A stretch of 64,000 bases of DNA from Escherichia coli (lineage in GTDB: Bacteria > Pseudomonadota > Gammaproteobacteria > Enterobacterales > Enterobacteriaceae): NCBI RefSeq assembly GCF_013122565.1, contig NZ_CP053258.1. One strand, given 5' to 3'. Position 1 is the first letter of the stretch. Each line of letters begins with the position of its first letter. Below, in pieces: positions 46,491 through 57,706 of this stretch. The notes beneath the pieces were generated by a model. The model had not been told where the DNA came from, ran no database searches, and saw nothing but the letters and a program-made list of their open reading frames with translations. The position numbers and the translations under genes are program-made.

Positions 46491-46702
46491 GAGTTCCCCG
46501 CGCCAGCGGGGATAAACCGGCGATTATAGCGGACTTTCAAGAGAACAGTCTGAGTTCCCCGCGCCAGCGGGGATAAACCGTGGAAAATCACCGACAATAT
46601 TCGACATGGAGAGAGTTCCCCGCGCCAGCGAGGATAAACCGTTATCGGTCATCAACTATAGCGCGTATTTACTAAGTTCCCCGTTCCAACACGAATAATC
46701 CG
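46491..46702 (+). CRISPR. Type I-E CRISPR mini-array (CRISPR2-like): 3 intact repeats, 1 degenerate terminal repeat, 3 spacers of 32 bp
   Basis: Repeats gagttccccgcgccagcggggataaaccg at 46491, 46552 and 46613 (third has one mismatch). Degenerate repeat 46674..46702. Phase confirmed by the antisense artefact ORF 46379..46597. Confidence 0.95.
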
Positions 46703-48074: not shown

Positions 48075-49874
48075 ATGACGACACAGGTCCCACCTTCCGC
48101 GTTGCTTCCGTTGAACCCGGAGCAACTGGCACGCCTTCAGGCGGCCACGACCGATTTAACTCCCACCCAGCTTGCCTGGGTTTCTGGCTATTTCTGGGGC
48201 GTGCTCAATCAGCAGCCTGCTGCGCTTGCAGCGACGCCAGCGCCAGCCGCAGAAATGCCGGGTATAACTATTATCTCCGCCTCGCAAACTGGCAATGCGC
48301 GCCGGGTTGCTGAAGCATTACGCGATGATTTATTGACGGCAAAACTGAACGTTAAGCTGGTGAACGCGGGCGACTATAAATTCAAACAAATCGCCAGCGA
48401 AAAACTGCTCATCGTAGTGACGTCAACGCAAGGGGAAGGGGAACCGCCGGAAGAAGCCGTCGCGCTGCATAAGTTCCTGTTCTCCAAAAAAGCGCCAAAG
48501 CTGGAAAACACCGCGTTTGCCGTGTTTAGCCTCGGCGATAGCTCTTATGAATTTTTCTGCCAGTCCGGGAAAGATTTCGACAGCAAGCTGGCGGAACTGG
48601 GCGGTGAACGCCTGCTCGACCGTGTCGACGCCGACGTTGAATACCAGGCTGCTGCCAGCGAGTGGCGCGCCCGCGTGGTTGATGCGCTTAAATCGCGTGC
48701 GCCTGTCGCGGCACCTTCGCAATCCGTCTCTACTGGCGCGGTAAATGAAATCCACGCCAGCCCGTACAGCAAAGACGCGCCGCTGGTGGCGAGCCTCTCT
48801 GTTAACCAGAAAATTACCGGGCGTAACTCTGAAAAAGACGTTCGCCATATCGAAATTGACTTAGGTGACTCGGGCCTGCGTTACCAGCCGGGTGACGCGC
48901 TGGGCGTCTGGTATCAGAACGATCCGGCACTGGTGAAAGAACTTGTCGAACTGCTGTGGCTGAAAGGCGATGAACCTGTCACCGTCGAGGGCAAAACGTT
49001 GCCTCTGAACGAAGCGCTACAGTGGCACTTCGAACTGACCGTCAACACCGCCAACATTGTTGAGAATTACGCCACGCTTACCCGCAGTGAAACACTGCTG
49101 CCGCTGGTGGGCGATAAAGCGAAGTTACAGCATTACGCCGCGACCACGCCGATTGTCGACATGGTGCGTTTCTCTCCGGCGCAACTGGATGCCGAAGCGC
49201 TGATTAATCTGCTGCGTCCGCTGACCCCGCGCCTGTATTCCATCGCCTCCTCGCAGGCGGAAGTCGAGAACGAAGTACACGTCACCGTTGGTGTGGTGCG
49301 TTACGACGTGGAAGGCCGCGCCCGTGCCGGTGGTGCCTCCAGCTTCCTCGCGGATCGTGTGGAAGAAGAGGGCGAAGTCCGCGTATTTATCGAACATAAC
49401 GATAACTTCCGTTTGCCTGCTAACCCGGAAACCCCGGTGATTATGATTGGCCCCGGTACCGGCATCGCGCCGTTCCGTGCCTTTATGCAGCAACGCGCCG
49501 CCGACGAAGCGCCGGGTAAAAACTGGCTGTTCTTTGGCAACCCGCACTTTACGGAAGATTTCCTCTACCAGGTGGAGTGGCAGCGCTACGTCAAAGAGGG
49601 CGTGCTGACGCGTATCGATCTTGCCTGGTCGCGCGACCAAAAAGAAAAAGTTTATGTACAAGACAAACTGCGCGAACAGGGCGCGGAGCTGTGGCGCTGG
49701 ATCAATGACGGTGCCCACATTTATGTCTGCGGCGACGCTAATCGCATGGCGAAAGACGTTGAGCAGGCACTTCTGGAAGTGATTGCCGAATTTGGTGGCA
49801 TGGACACCGAAGCGGCGGATGAATTTTTAAGTGAGCTGCGCGTAGAGCGCCGTTATCAGCGAGATGTCTACTAA
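48075..49874 (+). CDS. cysJ: Sulfite reductase [NADPH] flavoprotein alpha subunit
   Basis: 599 aa. Confidence 0.97.
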
Positions 49875-51586
49875 TGAGCAAAAAACATCCAGGGCCTTTA
49901 GTGGTCGAAGGAAAACTGACAGACGCCGAGCGCATGAAGCTTGAAAGCAACTACCTGCGCGGCACCATTGCGGAAGATTTAAACGACGGTCTGACCGGCG
50001 GCTTTAAGGGCGACAACTTCCTGCTGATCCGCTTCCACGGCATGTATCAGCAGGATGACCGCGACATCCGCGCCGAACGTGCTGAACAGAAGCTGGAGCC
50101 GCGCCACGCGATGCTGCTTCGCTGTCGTCTGCCGGGTGGGGTGATTACCACTAAACAGTGGCAGGCGATCGACAAATTTGCCGGTGAAAACACCATCTAT
50201 GGCAGCATTCGCCTGACCAACCGCCAGACGTTTCAGTTCCACGGCATTCTGAAAAAGAACGTCAAACCGGTGCACCAGATGCTGCACTCGGTCGGTCTTG
50301 ATGCGCTGGCGACCGCTAACGACATGAACCGTAACGTACTCTGCACCTCGAACCCTTACGAGTCGCAGCTGCACGCGGAAGCATATGAATGGGCGAAGAA
50401 AATCTCTGAACATCTGCTGCCGCGTACTCGCGCGTATGCGGAGATCTGGCTCGATCAGGAAAAAGTCGCCACCACTGATGAAGAGCCGATCCTTGGTCAG
50501 ACCTACCTGCCGCGTAAGTTCAAAACCACGGTAGTGATCCCGCCGCAGAACGATATCGATCTGCACGCCAACGACATGAACTTCGTGGCGATCGCCGAAA
50601 ACGGCAAGCTGGTGGGCTTTAACCTGCTGGTGGGCGGTGGGCTTTCTATCGAACACGGCAACAAGAAAACCTACGCCCGCACGGCGAGTGAGTTTGGCTA
50701 TCTGCCGCTAGAACATACGCTGGCGGTGGCGGAAGCCGTCGTGACAACTCAGCGTGACTGGGGTAACCGAACCGATCGTAAAAATGCCAAAACCAAATAC
50801 ACGCTGGAGCGCGTGGGGGTTGAGACGTTTAAAGCGGAAGTGGAGCGTCGCGCGGGGATCAAATTTGAACCGATCCGTCCGTATGAGTTCACCGGACGCG
50901 GCGATCGTATTGGCTGGGTTAAGGGCATTGATGATAACTGGCACCTGACGCTGTTTATCGAAAATGGTCGCATCCTTGATTATCCGGGGCGTCCGCTGAA
51001 AACTGGCCTGCTGGAGATCGCGAAGATCCACAAAGGTGATTTCCGCATTACGGCGAACCAGAATTTGATCATCGCCGGTGTGCCGGAAAGTGAGAAAGCG
51101 AAGATCGAGAAGATCGCCAAAGAGAGCGGGTTAATGAATGCCGTCACGCCGCAGCGTGAAAACTCAATGGCCTGCGTGTCATTCCCGACTTGCCCGCTGG
51201 CGATGGCGGAAGCAGAGCGTTTCCTGCCGTCTTTTATCGACAACATCGACAATTTAATGGCGAAACATGGTGTCAGCGATGAGCATATCGTGATGCGTGT
51301 AACAGGCTGCCCGAACGGTTGTGGTCGCGCGATGCTGGCGGAAGTGGGCCTGGTGGGTAAAGCGCCGGGTCGCTACAACCTGCATCTTGGCGGCAACCGC
51401 ATTGGGACACGTATCCCACGGATGTATAAAGAAAACATCACCGAGCCGGAAATCCTGGCGTCGCTTGATGAACTGATAGGGCGCTGGGCGAAAGAGCGCG
51501 AAGCGGGTGAAGGCTTCGGCGACTTTACGGTGCGTGCGGGCATCATTCGCCCGGTGCTCGATCCGGCGCGCGATTTGTGGGATTAA
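49874..51586 (+). CDS. cysI: Sulfite reductase [NADPH] hemoprotein beta subunit
   Basis: 570 aa. Confidence 0.97.
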
Positions 51587-51601
51587 CCATCAGCCCGGTC
51601 T

Positions 51602-51639
51602 TGTAGGCCTGATAAGACGCGTGAGCGTCGCATCAGGCA
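51602..51639. repeat. REP element between cysI and cysH
   Basis: tgtaggcctgataagacgcgtgagcgtcgcatcaggca. Confidence 0.7.
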
Positions 51640-51659
51640 AGGCAAACAGTGAGGAATCT

Positions 51660-52394
51660 ATGTCCAAACTCGATCTAAACGCCCTGAACGAACTGCCGAA
51701 GGTAGATCGCATTCTGGCGCTGGCGGAAACTAACGCCCAACTGGAAAAACTGGATGCTGAAGGCCGCGTTGCCTGGGCGCTGGATAATCTGCCCGGTGAA
51801 TATGTACTTTCTTCCAGCTTTGGTATTCAGGCGGCGGTGAGCCTGCATCTGGTGAATCAGATTCGGCCGGATATTCCAGTGATCCTCACCGATACCGGTT
51901 ATCTGTTCCCGGAAACCTACCGCTTTATTGACGAGTTAACGGACAAACTCAAGCTCAACCTGAAAGTGTACCGTGCTACCGAAAGCGCCGCCTGGCAGGA
52001 AGCACGCTACGGCAAACTGTGGGAGCAGGGCGTTGAAGGCATTGAAAAGTACAATGACATCAACAAAGTCGAACCGATGAACCGGGCGCTGAAAGAACTG
52101 AATGCGCAAACGTGGTTTGCTGGCCTGCGCCGTGAACAATCCGGCAGCCGCGCCAATTTACCGGTGCTGGCAATTCAGCGTGGCGTATTTAAAGTACTGC
52201 CGATTATCGATTGGGATAACCGAACGATATATCAGTATCTGCAAAAGCATGGCCTGAAATATCACCCATTATGGGACGAAGGATATTTATCGGTCGGTGA
52301 TACCCATACAACCCGTAAATGGGAACCCGGCATGGCGGAAGAAGAAACACGTTTCTTTGGTTTAAAAAGGGAGTGTGGGTTACACGAAGGGTAA
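51660..52394 (+). CDS. cysH: Phosphoadenosine phosphosulfate (PAPS) reductase
   Basis: 244 aa from [17 protein letters not shown]. The track ORF begins 51 codons upstream, inside the REP. Confidence 0.95.
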
Positions 52395-52658
52395 ATATTG
52401 CCGGATAAATTAAACGCCTCTGTCAGAAATGATGGGGGCGTTTTTATTTTGCGAGCAGCATTCCTGATTTTAAACGTGAACGCCGCTGGAAGAATTATCA
52501 GGTATAGAATGGCGTCGGGTGCTTGAGGCTGTCTGGCGTTAAGCATTCGCGAGGTTCCAGATGGACAAAAGCCCCAGGCGATATTTCTATCAACCTGAGG
52601 CTTACGTTCGAACCCAAACAATTCGAATGTTAGTCTCTTCTTTGCAGGGAGGCAAGAC

Positions 52659-52811
52659 ATGCTGACAAAATATGCCCTTGTGGCAATCATCGTACTGTGT
52701 TGTACAGTACTGGGATTCACGCTGATGGTAGGCGACTCGTTGTGTGAGTTGAGTATCAGAGAACGTGGTATGGAGTTTAAGGCAGTTCTCGCTTACGAAT
52801 CGAAGAAGTAG
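52659..52811 (+). CDS. Hok/Gef-family type I toxin (50 aa; below ORF-track cutoff)
   Basis: Translates to [50 protein letters not shown]. One TM helix and a conserved C-terminal SLCE...AYES.K block as in plasmid R1 Hok (from memory). SD agggagg 7 nt upstream. An overlapping upstream 34-codon ORF (52561..52665) ends 7 nt into hok, like a mok reading frame. Confidence 0.8.
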
Positions 52812-52814
52812 CCA

Positions 52815-52876
52815 CCACGCGGGGGTAAAACCCCGCGTACTGAATTGTGATGGTTTGGTCTCCTGCACCCTTTTTT
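52815..52876 (+). terminator. Structured 3' region and terminator of the hok transcript
   Basis: Hairpin acgcgggg-gtaaaa-ccccgcgt, then a T6 run at 52871..52876. Confidence 0.45.
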
Positions 52877-52879
52877 AAT

Positions 52880-53048
52880 TTATATTATTTATGTGAGTAT
52901 TATGCCTATGTTTATTATTTATATATATTACGGATGAAAATCATTTAATTATTCACAATGTAAATATTTTATTGAAAGATATATGTCACAGATAATTTTT
53001 AATATGTGCGTAAATATCCTTTAAGTTTTACTGAAGGATAAAAATATT
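52880..53048 (+). promoter_or_regulatory. AT-rich cas3 promoter region
   Basis: About 170 bp of very AT-rich sequence directly upstream of the cas3 start, typical of a nucleoid-protein-silenced cas promoter. Promoter elements not individually assigned. Confidence 0.4.
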
Positions 53049-54392
53049 GTGACTTTCTTTGATTTCTGGGGAAAAACCCGACGTGGCGAGAAAGAAGGGG
53101 GCGACGGCTATCACCTTCTTTGCTGGCATTCGCTGGATGTGGCCGCGATGGGCTATTTAATGGTTAAAAGAAATTGCTTCGGGCTGGCTGACTATTTTCG
53201 TCAATTAGGGATTTCTGACAAGGAACAGGCAGCTCAATTTTTCGCCTGGTTGCTGTGCTGGCACGATATTGGAAAATTTGCCCGCTCTTTTCAACAACTT
53301 TACCTGCCCCCTGAATTCAAGATTCAGGAAGGTGCCAGAAAAAATTACGAAAAAATCTCTCATTCAACGCTGGGCTACTGGTTGTGGAATCATTATTTAA
53401 GTGAATGTCAGGAGTTACTTCCTTCATCTTCGCTCTCTCCGCGCAAACTTAGGCGAGTGATAGAAATGTGGATGCCCGTGACGACAGGGCATCATGGTCG
53501 GCCCCCTGATCGTATGGATGAATTGGATAATTTTCTGCCTGAAGACAAAGCTGCAGCACGAGATTTTCTCCTTGAAATCAAACCACTGTTTCCGCTCATA
53601 GAGATCCCCGCATTCTGGGATGATGATGAGGGCATTGAACTTATAAAACACCTTTCCTGGTATATCTCTGCAACCGTCGTGCTCGCAGACTGGACGGGTT
53701 CGTCAACGCGATTTTTTCCACGCGTCGCACACCCAATGGATATTAAAGGTTACTGGCAGAAAACTTTAGTTCAGGCTCAAAATGCCTTAACCGTCTTTCC
53801 TCTAAAAGCAAAAGTCGCGCCTTTCACCGGAATTAATACGCTGTTTCCTTTTATTGAGAATCCGACACCGTTACAGCAAAAGGTGCTGGATCTGGATATC
53901 AGCCAGCCAGGGCCACAGTTATTTATTCTGGAAGATGTGACTGGCGCAGGTAAAACGGAAGCGGCGCTTATCCTGGCGCACAGGTTGATGGCTGCGGGTA
54001 AAGCGCAGGGTTTGTTTTTTGGCCTGCCAACAATGGCAACGGCCAATGCCATGTATGATCGGCTCGTCAAAACCTGGCTTTCTTTCTATTCGCCAGAATC
54101 TCGCCCCAGCCTGGTGCTGGCACACAGTGCCCGCACATTAATGGACCGCTTTAATGAATCACTCTGGTCCGGTGATTTAATCGGGTCAGAAGAACCGGAT
54201 GAACAAGCTTTCAGCCAGGGTTGTGCGGCCTGGTTTGCCGACAGTAACAAGAAGGCGTTGCTGGCTGAAATTGGCGTCGGCACCCTGGATCAGGCGATGA
54301 TGGCAGTGATGCCGTTTAAACATAATAATCTGCGGCTTCTGGGGCTGAGTAACAAAATCGTGTTCCCCGCGCCAGCGGGGATAAACCGATGA
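53049..54392 (+). pseudogene. cas3: Truncated cas3 (type I-E; HD nuclease domain and start of helicase domain only), fused to the CRISPR array
   Basis: 447-aa ORF with a GTG start. HD motif WHDIGKF and Walker A TGAGKTEAA. Collinear with the N-terminal half of K-12 Cas3 (888 aa, from memory). The frame runs through CRISPR repeat 1 (...NKIV|FPAPAGINR) and stops in spacer 1. Confidence 0.88.
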
Positions 54393-56647
54393 ATATTTGC
54401 GAATATTCGGCAGAAAGCGGGTGTTCCCCGCGCCAGCGGGGATAAACCGAGGTTGCGGCACAAATTGAGGTTGTCGCAAATGTGTTCCCCGCGCCAGCGG
54501 GGATAAACCGCCGACGCAGCAGCGGCAGCAGCGGCAGCAGCGGTGTTCCCCGCGCCAGCGGGGATAAACCGTGGATCAGTGCCGCGTTCTCTCTCCGTGT
54601 AATGTGTTCCCCGCGCCAGCGGGGATAAACCGATCGAGACGGGTACGCGTAAAGCCGAGCTGGCGTGTTCCCCGCGCCAGCGGGGATAAACCGCGATCGG
54701 TTAATTCTTCTACCTGCCTTTGCAGGTGTTCCCCGCGCCAGCGGGGATAAACCGCCCGCAATGCATTCGGGCAGTTCCTTGCCGGGGTGTTCCCCGCGCC
54801 AGCGGGGATAAACCGGAGATTGAGCCAGACGCCCGCCAGGTGTTACTGTGTTCCCCGCGCCAGCGGGGATAAACCGGAAGTAACACACCCAACCCAGGTT
54901 GCGCCAGAGTGTTCCCCGCGCCAGCGGGGATAAACCGCCTGTTTGAGCAGGCGCGAATGAACCGGACCAGTGTTCCCCGCGCCAGCGGGGATAAACCGTC
55001 AGGTAAGCCAGTGTTAGGGGCAATATAGCAGTGTTCCCCGCGCCAGCGGGGATAAACCGTCATCGGCTCGTTATTTGTAGCCAGCACTACGGTGTTCCCC
55101 GCGCCAGCGGGGATAAACCGCTTTATCAGATGGTAAAGGTGAATCAATATGAGTGTTCCCCGCGCCAGCGGGGATAAACCGATACCCCAGCGTTTCGTTA
55201 TATGACGGAAGATGTGTTCCCCGCGCCAGCGGGGATAAACCGTGCAACCAGGACGGCAGGACGCATCGCCAGATGTGTTCCCCGCGCCAGCGGGGATAAA
55301 CCGCACGTTATTATCCGATATTCACCGATAAGCGTGTGTTCCCCGCGCCAGCGGGGATAAACCGTCTGGGCGTAAACAGTCGGATAAATCGCGGGTGTGT
55401 TCCCCGCGCCAGCGGGGATAAACCGGCGGCGTGTGGGGTAACAATCAGGGAGAGAAAGTGTTCCCCGCGCCAGCGGGGATAAACCGGATAAATACAGTAT
55501 ATTCCCGCGCTCTGCTGGCGTGTTCCCCGCGCCAGCGGGGATAAACCGTAGATTTTGTCCGGCTCAGGTGCGCCGATGGTGTGTTCCCCGCGCCAGCGGG
55601 GATAAACCGATCGAGTACAACAAAAAATATACTGAGTGAGTGTGTTCCCCGCGCCAGCGGGGATAAACCGCTGTTTGCTCCTGCTGCTCATTTAGTGATT
55701 TAGTGTTCCCCGCGCCAGCGGGGATAAACCGCCTGTTCTTTTTTAGTCAACTTAACCATGCTCGTGTTCCCCGCGCCAGCGGGGATAAACCGTCTTTTTC
55801 GAGACTTGCAGCAACGCTCTGAAAGTGTTCCCCGCGCCAGCGGGGATAAACCGATCGAGTAGTTTTGAGGGTTGGTGAATTCAGGGTGTTCCCCGCGCCA
55901 GCGGGGATAAACCGCTTAATAAATGGACTTAAGCGCCCAGTATTGGGTGTTCCCCGCGCCAGCGGGGATAAACCGGGGAGGGCGAGCCGCCGTAGGTGCG
56001 GTGAGGGGTGTTCCCCGCGCCAGCGGGGATAAACCGACGCAGAAACTGGTTGAAATAGTTTACGGTGAGTGTTCCCCGCGCCAGCGGGGATAAACCGGCA
56101 GTAAATTATTTGACCTCGTTGATAATCCCGTGTTCCCCGCGCCAGCGGGGATAAACCGGTGGCGGTGTGATTGTGGGACTTATTGCCATCGTGTTCCCCG
56201 CGCCAGCGGGGATAAACCGGGCCTTTTCAGCAGATTAACCGCCGCGATTGCGTGTTCCCCGCGCCAGCGGGGATAAACCGAGAGATTTATATTCTTTCAA
56301 ACCGGATTATATCGTGTTCCCCGCGCCAGCGGGGATAAACCGCTTCAAGAATTTTTAAACGCTGGCTTCAAAATGTGTTCCCCGCGCCAGCGGGGATAAA
56401 CCGTCCCACGCGTGCCAGATGGCGCGTTTGATGGCGTGTTCCCCGCGCCAGCGGGGATAAACCGATGATAACGGCAAAGGGTACGCTACGTACAACGTGT
56501 TCCCCGCGCCAGCGGGGTTAAACTGTGATCCAGTGAGTACCGATCCGGGAACAACCGGTGTTCCTCGCATCAGCGGGGATAAACCGGGTGCACTGGATGC
56601 GATGATGGATATCACTTGGCGTTCCCCCGCCCCTGCGGTAGAACTCC
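54360..56647 (+). CRISPR. Type I-E CRISPR array: 37 repeat-spacer units plus a highly degenerate terminal repeat; no leader, no adjacent cas operon
   Basis: 29-bp repeat gtgttccccgcgccagcggggataaaccg with period 61. Spacers are 32 bp except one of 33 bp (55487..55519). Repeat phase verified against the antisense artefact ORFs ([10 protein letters not shown] / VYPRWRGEH / GLSPLARGT). Degenerate repeats at 56497, 56558 and 56619 mark the leader-distal end, next to iap. Confidence 0.97.
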
Positions 56648-56668: not shown

Positions 56669-57706
56669 TCAAGACGCCTTCGCCAACTCCTTCACCAGAG
56701 GTAGCATTATCCGCATAACGTCACGGCAGCGACGTTCTATTCTTCCAGGAAGTGCCTTATCAATATGCTGTTGATTATCCAGTCTTACGTCATGCCAGCT
56801 ATTTCCCGCAGGGAATGCGGCTGTTTTTGCGCGTTGCTGATAACCATCCTTATTCCCAAGATTCCAGTTAGTCGCTTCCACCGAAAGTACAGCAATGCCC
56901 GCTTTGTCGAATATTTCGGCGTCATTACAACATCCAGTGCCTTTCGGATAATTTTTATTCAAACCCGGATTGGTCGTTGCGGCAATTCCATGACTACGCG
57001 CAATTGCCAGCGCCCTGTCGCGCGTTAATTTCCTTACTGCTTCAGGGGTTTTTACACCGCTGTTGAAATACAATTTATCGCCAACAATTAAGTTATCGAG
57101 ATTAATCACCAGCAGCGTATTTTTCTTTTCGGTGTCACTCATCCGCTTGAGTAAATTCTCAGCGCCTAATTTTCCTTCCTCTTCGCCGCTGGTCGCCACA
57201 AATCGAATACCATACTCGGTAGGCGTATTTTTCAGGCGTTCTGCCAGTTCCAGCATGACACCTAAACCTGCGGCGTTATCATCTATTCCTTGTAACGTCA
57301 GTCCGCCGAGATTGGCATCGGCGTCAGCATCGCTCAGCGGGGCGTAAGTATCCAGATGCGCCATAATGATGATCTGCTGCGGCGCTTTGCCTTCATGAGC
57401 GGCAATCACCGTACTTCCCGTCACGTTATGCCAGCTCTTACGATTATCGCGGGCGGTATAAATATATCGACTATTAAATGTCCGAATATCACTGCGATAA
57501 CCCATTTGCTGAAACTGTTGGCGAATATAATCGGCAGATAACATTTCTGCAGGAGTTCCGGTCATGCGTCCCGGAAAGAAAGTAGCAATATGTCGTGCCT
57601 GGGTATTAGCAAAATCGCCAGGTTTAGGTGACGAGGCGTGTACGGGGAGAATAAAGCATACGCCGAGCGCCAGGGCAGCGGTACGGTGGCGCAATGCGGA
57701 AAACAT
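56669..57706 (-). CDS. iap: Alkaline phosphatase isozyme conversion aminopeptidase Iap
   Basis: 345 aa, signal peptide, M28-type peptidase. Confidence 0.93.
   Translation of the reverse strand: MFSALRHRTAALALGVCFILPVHASSPKPGDFANTQARHIATFFPGRMTGTPAEMLSADYIRQQFQQMGYRSDIRTFNSRYIYTARDNRKSWHNVTGSTVIAAHEGKAPQQIIIMAHLDTYAPLSDADADANLGGLTLQGIDDNAAGLGVMLELAERLKNTPTEYGIRFVATSGEEEGKLGAENLLKRMSDTEKKNTLLVINLDNLIVGDKLYFNSGVKTPEAVRKLTRDRALAIARSHGIAATTNPGLNKNYPKGTGCCNDAEIFDKAGIAVLSVEATNWNLGNKDGYQQRAKTAAFPAGNSWHDVRLDNQQHIDKALPGRIERRCRDVMRIMLPLVKELAKAS

What the first reader, a model, noticed from the sequence alone, without database searches (positions are those of the whole stretch)
54300..54392. Cas3 stump is a chimeric in-frame fusion ending inside the CRISPR array
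The last Cas3-derived residues (...MPFKHNNLRLLGLSNKIV) are followed by ten residues encoded by repeat 1 and the first bases of spacer 1 (FPAPAGINR, then stop). The junction is abrupt: the sequence switches from cas3 coding directly to the canonical repeat with no leader remnant. The 447-aa product keeps a complete HD nuclease domain and the helicase Walker A but none of the C-terminal helicase or Cascade-interaction regions. A stand-alone HD nuclease could have residual activity, or it may simply be a pseudogene.
Basis: seen in the sequence. Interest (0 to 1): 0.45.

Follow-up and report, generated by a model that had tools for sequence, protein, structure and literature searches.

The report
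Cas3 pseudogene stump joined to CRISPR repeat
A deletion removed most of this bacterium's type I-E CRISPR immune genes, leaving half of cas3 joined to the first base of a CRISPR repeat; this is a known kind of decay, but seven other independent deletions end at that same base, which suggests the CRISPR machinery helps delete itself.

Summary
ORF 53049..54392 (+, 447 aa) is the 5' half of an E1-variant type I-E cas3. Cas3 homology stops exactly at 54359. Base 54360 is base 1 of a canonical 29-nt repeat, with no leader and no microhomology. The stump keeps the HD domain and Walker A and stops four residues before the DExH motif.

It is the scar of a deletion of at least 7.4 kb (cas3 3' half, casABCDE, cas1, cas2, leader). 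A 37-repeat orphan array remains between cysH and iap. The arrangement is known: Touchon & Rocha 2010 describe "only a cas3 pseudogene", and PGAP calls such stumps pseudogenes. In an older lineage with the same kind of fusion the stump has gained a nonsense codon. The stump is therefore most likely a recent pseudogene, not a stand-alone nuclease.

This exact junction was found in none of 5,426 complete E. coli genomes, the GTDB representatives or JGI metagenomes. Seven other independent cas3::repeat junctions do exist, in E. coli and relatives. All eight lie at repeat base 1 (0-1 nt ambiguity), and none has the AAG PAM that a cas3-derived spacer would need. Nine ordinary cas-operon deletions show 2-12 nt microhomology. 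This points, as an unproven inference, to the Cas1-Cas2 cleavage site as the fixed end of the deletion.

The parts
52517..52811 (+). hok/sok toxin-antitoxin locus immediately upstream of cas3 (context; conserved left neighbour of E1-type cas3)
   Evidence: Rfam sok match at 52517-52674, 113 bits. The 50-aa ORF at 52659..52811 sits where Hok/Gef family genes are annotated in L001 and in the other fetched loci.
52812..53048 (+). cas3 upstream/promoter region. The annotated 14-aa N-terminal extension (MRKYPLSLLKDKNIV) is out of frame here.
   Evidence: Alignment A1: ATG is replaced by GTG, and a run of three T in L001 is four T here. AH04 carries the same four-T run.
53049..54359 (+). cas3-derived coding sequence (aa 1-437): complete HD nuclease domain (HDIGK at 53262-53276), Walker A GAGKTE (53943-53960) and the first part of RecA1. 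It ends four residues before the DExH motif.
   Evidence: Best identity to any complete E. coli cas3 is 98.3% (97.3% to L001).
54359..54360 (+). Deletion junction: the last cas3 base (C, 54359) joined to base 1 (G, 54360) of a CRISPR repeat, with zero microhomology and no leader.
   Evidence: Ungapped alignment to L001. cas3 nt 1353 in L001 numbering.
54360..54392 (+). Chimeric tail of the ORF: [10 protein letters not shown] (repeat 1 plus 1 nt of spacer 1), then stop TGA in spacer 1.
54360..56586 (+). Orphan, leaderless type I-E array: 37 repeats (35 perfect copies of GTGTTCCCCGCGCCAGCGGGGATAAACCG) and 36 unique spacers (34 of 32 nt, 2 of 33 nt).
   Evidence: No spacer matches the cas operon or the window, and no protospacers were found in the phage or plasmid collections.
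56497..56586 (+). Two degenerate trailer-end repeats (56497-56525 and 56558-56586) flanking the oldest spacer. They mark the iap-proximal end of the array and so fix its polarity.
56669..57706 (-). iap, the conserved right-hand neighbour of the CRISPR-I locus.
   Evidence: ORF. Same position as the annotated iap in L001 and the other loci.

Best explanation
This is the scar of one deletion of at least 7.4 kb in an E1-variant type I-E CRISPR-Cas locus of an Escherichia lineage. The deletion removed the 3' half of cas3, casA-E, cas1, cas2 and the leader, and possibly some repeat-spacer units. It joined cas3 nt 1353 directly to the first base of a CRISPR repeat.

The 447-aa ORF is a by-product. 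Translation from the cas3 start runs through the repeat ([10 protein letters not shown]) to the first stop, which lies in spacer 1. The product lacks helicase motif II and everything downstream, so it cannot work as Cas3 and is most likely a young pseudogene. The 37-repeat array is an orphan with no leader, no Cas6e and no Cascade. Its large size, its perfect repeats and the still-open stump indicate that the loss is recent.

Mechanism of the deletion (inferred, not shown). The fixed endpoint is the phosphodiester bond on the 5' side of a repeat, which is where the Cas1-Cas2 integrase cuts or joins the top strand during spacer integration. A top-strand 3'-OH end lying in cas3 was joined there without homology. 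Such an end could come from resection of a break made at the integration nick, from Cas3 or RecBCD processing, or from a stalled nascent strand. The joining could be Cas1-Cas2 transesterification (a half-site integration of chromosomal DNA) or ligation at the integration nick. Replication would then fix the deletion, which also destroys the system that made it.
For: Shown:
- cas3 homology ends at 54359 and the repeat starts at 54360, with no leader.
- The full-length reference order is cysH-hok-cas3-casABCDE-cas1-cas2-leader-array-iap.
- The HD domain is complete and the helicase core is cut at profile position 126 of 358. DEIH follows the break in the reference.
- Equivalent stumps are annotated as pseudogenes.
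- AH04 has a nonsense codon at codon 377, and AH04 and 6EVA differ at 3 sites, all nonsynonymous.
- The literature reports that 'only a cas3 pseudogene is still present' in some genomes and that array length falls as decay ages (PMC2886076).

For the mechanism:
- Eight independent cas3::repeat junctions exist: the window; the L002/AH04 type at nt 1470 in at least 11 complete genomes; STEC384 at nt 1569; the L003/A20 type at nt 1671 in 5 genomes; and L004, L005, L006 and L007 in related Enterobacteriaceae. All lie at repeat base 1 with 0-1 nt ambiguity. By chance this has P about 1e-12.
- Their microhomology values (0,0,0,1,0,1,0) contrast with 2-12 nt in nine other cas-operon deletions. Mann-Whitney p = 0.00035.
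- None of the eight has AAG at -35..-33.
- That the leader-repeat boundary is the first Cas1-Cas2 attack site is established knowledge (Nunez et al. 2015), not tested here.
Against: Against the pseudogene reading:
- The stump ORF is still open in the window and in most relatives.
- Isolated Cas3 HD domains of other organisms cut ssDNA in vitro (my own knowledge), so residual activity is not excluded.

Against the mechanism:
- No enzyme was tested.
- Left endpoints were sampled only within cas3, because the searches used Cas3. No CasA::repeat or Cas1::repeat fusions were seen in the limited CasA and Cas1 samples.
- The junctions do not lie next to the correctly oriented Chi sites (cas5+593, casA+1026, cas3+2531), so a simple RecBCD/Chi resection model does not set the cas3 endpoint.
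- No ancestral, cas-intact array could be found for any junction lineage, so it is unknown whether the retained repeat was the leader-proximal one.
- The AAG expectation rests on published E. coli I-E PAM data. It could not be checked on this array, because no protospacers were found.
Confidence: 0.8

Rival explanations
1. The deletion arose by homologous recombination between a self-derived spacer (acquired from cas3, in direct orientation) and its protospacer in cas3. That would remove everything in between and leave cas3 sequence abutting the repeat that followed the spacer.
For: It predicts exactly the observed geometry: cas3 sequence up to base 1 of a repeat, with no visible microhomology. 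Self-targeting spacers are associated with degraded cas loci (Stern 2010, cited in PMC8047081). A self-spacer would give both the homology and, if it interfered, the selection for losing cas.
Against: None of the eight junctions has the AAG PAM at -35..-33 (ATA, GAA, CGT, GCG, GGT, CTT, GCG, CGA), and none has a slipped or flipped version of it. The chance of 0 of 8 is 0.004 even if only half of genuine spacers carried AAG. No cas-derived spacer occurs among 98 distinct spacers in the arrays examined, nor among the window's 36. The published survey found anti-cas spacers only in I-F arrays (PMC2886076). A survivor-bias variant, in which only PAM-less self-spacers persist, is not excluded.
Confidence: 0.2
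2. The 447-aa protein is a functional stand-alone HD nuclease retained by selection.
For: The HD domain is complete with its catalytic motifs (HDIGK, GHHG). The ORF is open from a GTG preceded by a Shine-Dalgarno-like AAGGA. Stumps are still open in 6EVA, A20, STEC384, L002 and L003.
Against: The break points differ in every lineage (aa 345 to 676), so no particular product is conserved. AH04 has a nonsense codon, and AH04 and 6EVA differ only by nonsynonymous changes. The stump carries a cut-open RecA1 domain with no motif II. The tail is arbitrary repeat-encoded sequence. The cas3 promoter region is H-NS-silenced in E. coli (established knowledge).
Confidence: 0.06
3. The junction is an assembly artefact: an intact locus collapsed because a spacer identical to cas3 let the assembler jump from cas3 into the array.
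For: The window's junction is seen nowhere else, and the reads cannot be inspected.
Against: Junctions of the same kind occur in independently assembled complete genomes and in an NCBI isolate assembly, with contiguous cysH-stump-array-iap. A collapse would need a cas3-derived spacer, for which there is no PAM support. The window runs without a break from cysJIH through the array to iap and cysDNC.
Confidence: 0.03
4. Ordinary illegitimate (microhomology-mediated or random) deletion whose endpoint fell on a repeat boundary by chance.
For: For the window alone, a 1-in-61 coincidence cannot be excluded. Other deletions in this operon are of the ordinary microhomology type.
Against: Eight of eight independent events lie on base 1 (P about 1e-12), and microhomology is significantly lower than in control deletions.
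Confidence: 0.02

Closest known systems
Degraded type I-E ('Ecoli subtype') CRISPR-Cas loci of Escherichia, Shigella and Salmonella that retain only a cas3 pseudogene next to CRISPR1 (Touchon & Rocha 2010, PMC2886076)
   Same: Same chromosomal site (cysH...iap), the same outcome (Cascade, cas1 and cas2 lost; cas3 remnant and array kept) and the same interpretation as decay. Array length is read as an indicator of how recent the loss is.
   Different: Those cases usually have short arrays, and in Shigella they involve IS elements. Here the array is large (37 repeats), there is no IS, and the junction lies exactly on a repeat boundary, a detail the paper does not describe.
IS-mediated loss of cas-E genes and partial array loss in E. 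coli (arrangements D-G of Almendros et al. 2014, PMC3903273)
   Same: Removal of the leader plus the cas-E1 genes, with partial depletion of CRISPR2.1. The same E1 variant with the hok/sok neighbour.
   Different: That route leaves an IS copy at the junction. The window has none, and cas3 abuts the repeat directly. An IS-type case (P0008/L015, an IS903-like end in cas3) was seen for comparison.
Cas1-Cas2 spacer integration chemistry (first nucleophilic attack at the leader-repeat boundary; half-site intermediates; off-target integration)
   Same: The junction has the polarity and exact position of a site-1 strand-transfer product: a top-strand 3' end joined to the 5' G of a repeat, with no homology. 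The chemistry itself is from the literature, not tested here.
   Different: The joined DNA is not a 33-bp prespacer but the chromosome itself, several kb away, so the outcome is a deletion rather than a new spacer. No repeat duplication and no PAM are present. I found no description of such products.
Cas3-driven unidirectional genomic deletions after self-targeting (type I genome-editing and autoimmunity literature)
   Same: Deletions of several kb that extend upstream from a CRISPR-related site, with a variable distal endpoint. Escape from autoimmunity through loss of cas genes.
   Different: The proximal ends of Cas3 deletions are heterogeneous, not fixed to one nucleotide. No self-targeting spacer remains in the window's array.

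Membership tests
Cas3 (type I-E helicase-nuclease, NCBIfam NF007248 / PRK09694) | Full-length match above the curated cut-off (HD + RecA1 + RecA2 + C-terminal domain) | tested here: not met
   210.5 bits against a cut-off of 569; only profile positions 6-441 of 878 are matched.
Cas3 (type I-E helicase-nuclease, NCBIfam NF007248 / PRK09694) | HD nuclease domain | tested here: met
   PF18019 matches 1-207/207 at 115 bits; TIGR01596 matches 1-178/178 at 92.5 bits against a cut-off of 43.45.
Cas3 (type I-E helicase-nuclease, NCBIfam NF007248 / PRK09694) | Superfamily-2 helicase core with Walker A and DExH (motif II) | tested here: not met
   Walker A is present (aa 299-304). cas3_core scores 60.3 bits against a cut-off of 102.45 and covers only positions 2-126 of 358. 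DEIH lies just beyond the break in the reference.
[quoted passage not shown] | Cascade genes casA-E plus cas1 and cas2 adjacent to the array | tested here: not met
   Nothing lies between the cas3 stump and the array. Only the 64-kb window could be examined, so a second cas set elsewhere in the genome is untested.
[quoted passage not shown] | AT-rich leader upstream of the first repeat | tested here: not met
   The leader of L001 (about 155 nt between cas2 and repeat 1) has no counterpart; cas3 abuts the repeat.
Type I-E CRISPR array (CRISPR2.1 / CRISPR-I) | 29-nt repeat GTGTTCCCCGCGCCAGCGGGGATAAACCG, 32-33-nt unique spacers, degenerate terminal repeat beside iap | tested here: met
   37 repeats, 36 unique spacers and two degenerate repeats at the iap end.
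cas3::repeat-base-1 deletion class (defined here) | cas3 homology ends within 0-1 nt of base 1 of a canonical repeat; no leader, no IS, no microhomology | tested here: met
   Window. Seven further members.
Deletion by spacer-protospacer recombination | AAG (AWG) PAM 33-35 nt upstream of the junction on the cas3 sense strand | tested here: not met
   ATA in the window; 0 of 8 across the class.
Cas1-Cas2-dependent strand transfer product | Dependence on Cas1 catalysis; junction formed by transesterification | not testable with these tools
   Only the position and polarity of the junction are consistent with it. This needs genetics or biochemistry.

The most novel reading that the evidence does not exclude
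Precise cas3::repeat-base-1 junctions are scars of a self-inflicted deletion pathway. The Cas1-Cas2 integrase, or the nick it makes at a repeat's 5' boundary, joins a chromosomal 3' end from within cas3 to the array. This removes the cas operon and leader in one step and creates orphan arrays. It would be an undescribed, recurrent route of CRISPR-Cas loss in Enterobacteriaceae, and a natural in vivo footprint of half-site integration of non-prespacer DNA.
Probability: 0.35. Interest if true: 0.7.

Novelty: new member of a known kind. Interest (0 to 1): 0.4.

Why it matters
Taken alone, the window feature is a routine relic: one more lineage that lost its silent type I-E system and kept a cas3 pseudogene and an orphan array.

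The comparison it prompted has more value. Deletions that leave a cas3 stump against the array end on the same nucleotide in eight independent lineages of E. coli and related genera. They show no homology and no PAM. If that nucleotide is fixed because it is where Cas1-Cas2 cuts, then adaptation itself carries a risk of deleting the immune system.

That would help explain how orphan arrays and cas-less lineages arise so often. It would also give a simple sequence signature for finding such events in genome collections. The idea can be tested directly with cas1 active-site mutants and long-read or junction-PCR screens.

Tried and rejected
- Exact-protein look-ups of the stump found nothing.
- Exact junction scans of the GTDB representatives and the JGI metagenomes found nothing.
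- Searches for relatives sharing the window's spacers 1-2 found only repeat matches.
- Attempts to find cas-intact ancestors of the nt-1470 lineage through its spacers failed. The spacer pair a+b occurs only in genomes with the junction, and the KE55 hit was the unrelated CRISPR-II array.
- RecBCD/Chi model: correctly oriented Chi sites exist, but none lies next to a junction, so I rejected Chi as the determinant of the cas3 endpoint.
- Autoimmunity trigger: no spacer of the window array matches the window or an E1 operon.
- Validating the PAM on this array failed, because no protospacers were found in phages or plasmids.
- CasA and Cas1 homologue searches for casA::repeat or cas1::repeat fusions found none, but those samples are dominated by full-length proteins, so this is uninformative.
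- P0008, whose Cas3 homology ends three codons from the window's break point, turned out to be an IS insertion.
- I considered and set aside hairpin or SbcCD cleavage (the stem is only 6 bp, and the junction lies 5 nt outside it) and composite-IS excision (no IS, no target duplication).

Full report
**1. What is there.**
The window is an Escherichia-type chromosome segment. It carries gcvB, csrB and sok, then cysJIH, hok/sok, a cas3 fragment, a CRISPR array, iap and cysDNC. This is the CRISPR-I locus of E. coli.

ORF 53049..54392 (+) encodes 447 aa. I aligned it to a full-length E1-variant locus, L001 from strain 2014C-3307, whose order is cysH-hok-cas3-casA-casB-cas7-cas5-cas6e-cas1-cas2-leader-array-iap. 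Homology to cas3 runs to window 54359, which is cas3 nt 1353. After that point the reference reads CTGCTGGCTGATGAGATCCAC (LLADEIH...), while the window reads GTGTTCCCCGCGCCAGCGGGGATAAACCG, the canonical repeat. No base of the roughly 155-nt leader is present, and there is no microhomology at the join.

The tail [10 protein letters not shown] is encoded by the repeat plus one base of spacer 1, and the stop lies in spacer 1. The V is encoded by the repeat, not by cas3, which is a minor correction to the finding. The array has 37 repeats (35 perfect) and 36 unique spacers, with two degenerate repeats at the iap end. Its polarity is therefore the usual one, and the missing leader would have been on the cas3 side.

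**2. What the product keeps.**
- The HD domain is complete (PF18019 1-207/207; TIGR01596 1-178/178).
- The helicase core model is matched only over positions 2-126 of 358 and falls below its cut-off. The full-length Cas3 model scores 210 bits against a cut-off of 569.
- Walker A (GAGKTE, aa 299-304) is present. The DExH motif would start four residues after the break.
- Against solved structures, the stump aligns to residues 39-480 of a 949-residue Cas3 (4Q2C).
- The annotated 14-residue N-terminal extension of E1 Cas3 is out of frame here and in strain AH04, because of a T-run polymorphism. The GTG at 53049, preceded by AAGGA, is therefore the plausible start.

**3. Is it known?**
Yes, as an arrangement. 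[quoted passage not shown] Almendros et al. [quoted passage not shown] NCBI's pipeline labels equivalent stumps [quoted passage not shown].

The window has no IS at the join. With 37 repeats and an open stump, it looks like a recent loss.

**4. Population check.**
The window's own junction was found in none of the following:
- 5,426 complete E. coli genomes;
- the GTDB species representatives;
- the JGI metagenomes;
- the exact-protein index.

The window is at most 98.1-98.3% identical to any complete E. coli genome at cysIH and cas3, and its spacers 1-2 are not shared. The event therefore appears private to a somewhat divergent lineage.

**5. The same kind of junction recurs.**
A homology search with the stump returned other Cas3 N-termini that run into repeat-encoded peptides, in all three reading frames. 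Their DNA, together with complete genomes, gives eight independent junctions:

| Junction | cas3 position | Where found |
|---|---|---|
| Window | nt 1353 | this window only |
| L002/AH04 type | nt 1470 | at least 11 complete genomes carrying nested subsets of one spacer series, so one old event followed by spacer loss |
| STEC384 | nt 1569 | complete genome, 16 repeats |
| L003/A20 type | nt 1671 | 5 complete genomes |
| L004 | aa 676 | Salmonella-like context (cysH-sopD-cas3) |
| L005 | aa 595 | Salmonella-like context (cysH-sopD-cas3) |
| L006 | aa 372 | another enterobacterial lineage |
| L007 | aa 345 | another enterobacterial lineage; an NCBI isolate assembly with contiguous stump-array-iap |

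In every case cas3 homology ends at base 1 of the repeat. Five are exact at the DNA level, two have a 1-nt ambiguity, and L004 is judged at the protein level. If right endpoints were uniform over the 61-nt unit, the probability would be about 1e-12.

The class is rare. About 20 of the 2,777 complete genomes that carry the cas3 5' part have it, and none of an evenly spaced sample of 29 does. That sample instead showed nonsense mutations and one widespread cas3::cas7 deletion.

**6. How the join was made.**
I considered three readings.

*(a) Ordinary illegitimate recombination.* Nine other deletions inside the operon carry 2-12 nt of microhomology, and none ends at a repeat. They are cas3::cas1, cas3::cas7 (two events), cas3::cas2, casA::cas1, casA::cas7 and three internal cas3 deletions. 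The repeat class has 0-1 nt. Mann-Whitney gives p = 0.00035. I reject this reading for the class.

*(b) Recombination between a cas3-derived spacer and its protospacer.* The geometry fits. But the sense-strand triplet at -35..-33 is ATA, GAA, CGT, GCG, GGT, CTT, GCG and CGA: never AAG, and never a slipped or flipped AAG. The chance of 0 of 8 is at most 0.004 if at least half of real spacers carry AAG. No cas-derived spacer occurs among the 98 distinct spacers examined, and none of the window's 36 matches the operon or the window. A version in which only PAM-less self-spacers survive cannot be excluded.

*(c) The fixed end is the Cas1-Cas2 site.* In spacer integration, the top-strand phosphodiester on the 5' side of the repeat is the site of the first strand transfer (established knowledge, not tested here). 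A top-strand 3' end from cas3 joined to the repeat's 5' G, with no homology, has the form of a half-site product or of a ligation at that nick. Replication of that strand would yield the deletion.

I favour (c), at roughly 0.35-0.45, over (b), at about 0.2. The remainder goes to mechanisms I have not thought of.

Reading (c) has caveats:
- The cas3-side ends are not next to the correctly oriented Chi sites.
- Left ends were sampled only through Cas3 queries.
- No ancestral array was recovered.
- The PAM rule could not be re-derived from this array.

I found no description of this junction class in the searchable literature. That is absence of evidence within an incomplete library.

**7. Function of the stump.**
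- The break points differ in each lineage (aa 345 to 676), so no specific product is conserved.
- In the nt-1470 lineage, AH04 has a nonsense codon at position 377, and AH04 and 6EVA differ at three sites, all nonsynonymous. Across L002, AH04 and 6EVA, synonymous and nonsynonymous changes are about equal in number.
- The stump has an opened RecA1 domain without motif II, plus a random tail.

Together these favour a pseudogene. Residual HD nuclease activity remains possible but has no support, and I put it at about 0.06.

The array has no leader, no Cas6e and no Cascade within the window, so it is an orphan. It could only be read through from the cas3 promoter.

**8. Verdict.**
The feature is a new, private instance of a known kind of CRISPR-Cas decay, so I score it modestly.

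The wider result came from following it up: eight independent deletions end on the same nucleotide of the repeat, without homology or PAM. It gives a concrete, testable hypothesis that the adaptation machinery contributes to loss of its own locus.

Noticed in passing
window 46491-46641: A second, small type I-E array of 3 repeats with the GAGTTCC... repeat variant, about 8 kb upstream. I took it to be the CRISPR-II (CRISPR2.2-3) locus. It is also without cas genes within the window.
   Followed up: partly
L001 cas operon (cas3 aa 535, casA aa 391, cas1 aa 137, cas7 aa 159/177); proteins P0001, P0004, P0063, P0069, P0002: In-frame internal deletions of the E1 cas operon in public proteins reuse the same endpoints in different combinations: cas3-535 with cas1-137 and with cas3-679, and casA-391 with cas1-137 and with cas7-159. 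Most have a 2-3 nt microhomology that includes 'TA' (..GGTA|, ..GATA|, ..GTTA|). Reused endpoints are not expected from random deletion, and I have no explanation.
   Followed up: partly
cas3 nt 1353 (window 54359), 1470 (L002/L010), 1569 (L020), 1671 (L003/L011): The four E. coli cas3::repeat break points are all in codon phase 0 and lie 117, 99 and 102 nt apart, within a 318-nt stretch of a 2.7-kb gene. The four from other genera are in phases 1 and 2 and are more spread out. The sample is small and the ascertainment partly biased.
   Followed up: no
window 54633, 55610, 55854 (spacers 5, 21, 25) and 54511-54542 (spacer 3): Three unrelated spacers all begin with ATCGAG. Spacer 3 is a low-complexity (CAGCGG)n sequence. 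No spacer had a protospacer in the phage or plasmid collections.
   Followed up: partly
window 53000-53050; L010 (AH04); L021 (SCU-171); L023 (MINF_7C): The 14-aa N-terminal extension annotated on E1 Cas3 (MRKYPLSLLKDKNIV) depends on a T3/T4 run polymorphism. Genomes with the T4 form are probably flagged 'frameshifted' by PGAP for this reason even though cas3 is otherwise full length. That suggests the real start is the downstream GTG, and that some cas3 'pseudogenes' are annotation artefacts.
   Followed up: partly
window 49874-54359: No complete E. coli genome of 5,426 exceeds 98.1% identity at cysIH or 98.3% at cas3, and many unrelated strains tie for best hit. The source therefore seems to lie outside the commonly sequenced E. 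coli lineages. The organism was not identified.
   Followed up: partly
phage collection records OR845838.1, OR851156.1, OR851017.1: Short records labelled as Escherichia or Salmonella phages matched the array only through its type I-E repeats. They appear to consist of CRISPR array sequence and to be mislabelled.
   Followed up: no
L012 (AR_0069), L018/L019 (AR437, N767): Other leader-preserving deletions were seen: cas3 nt 1557::cas2 in AR_0069, and cas3 nt 1764::cas7 in AR437 and N767. The AR437/N767 event was seen in 2 of the 29 sampled genomes and may account for most of the ~282 complete genomes that have the cas3 5' part but lack the 3' part.
   Followed up: partly
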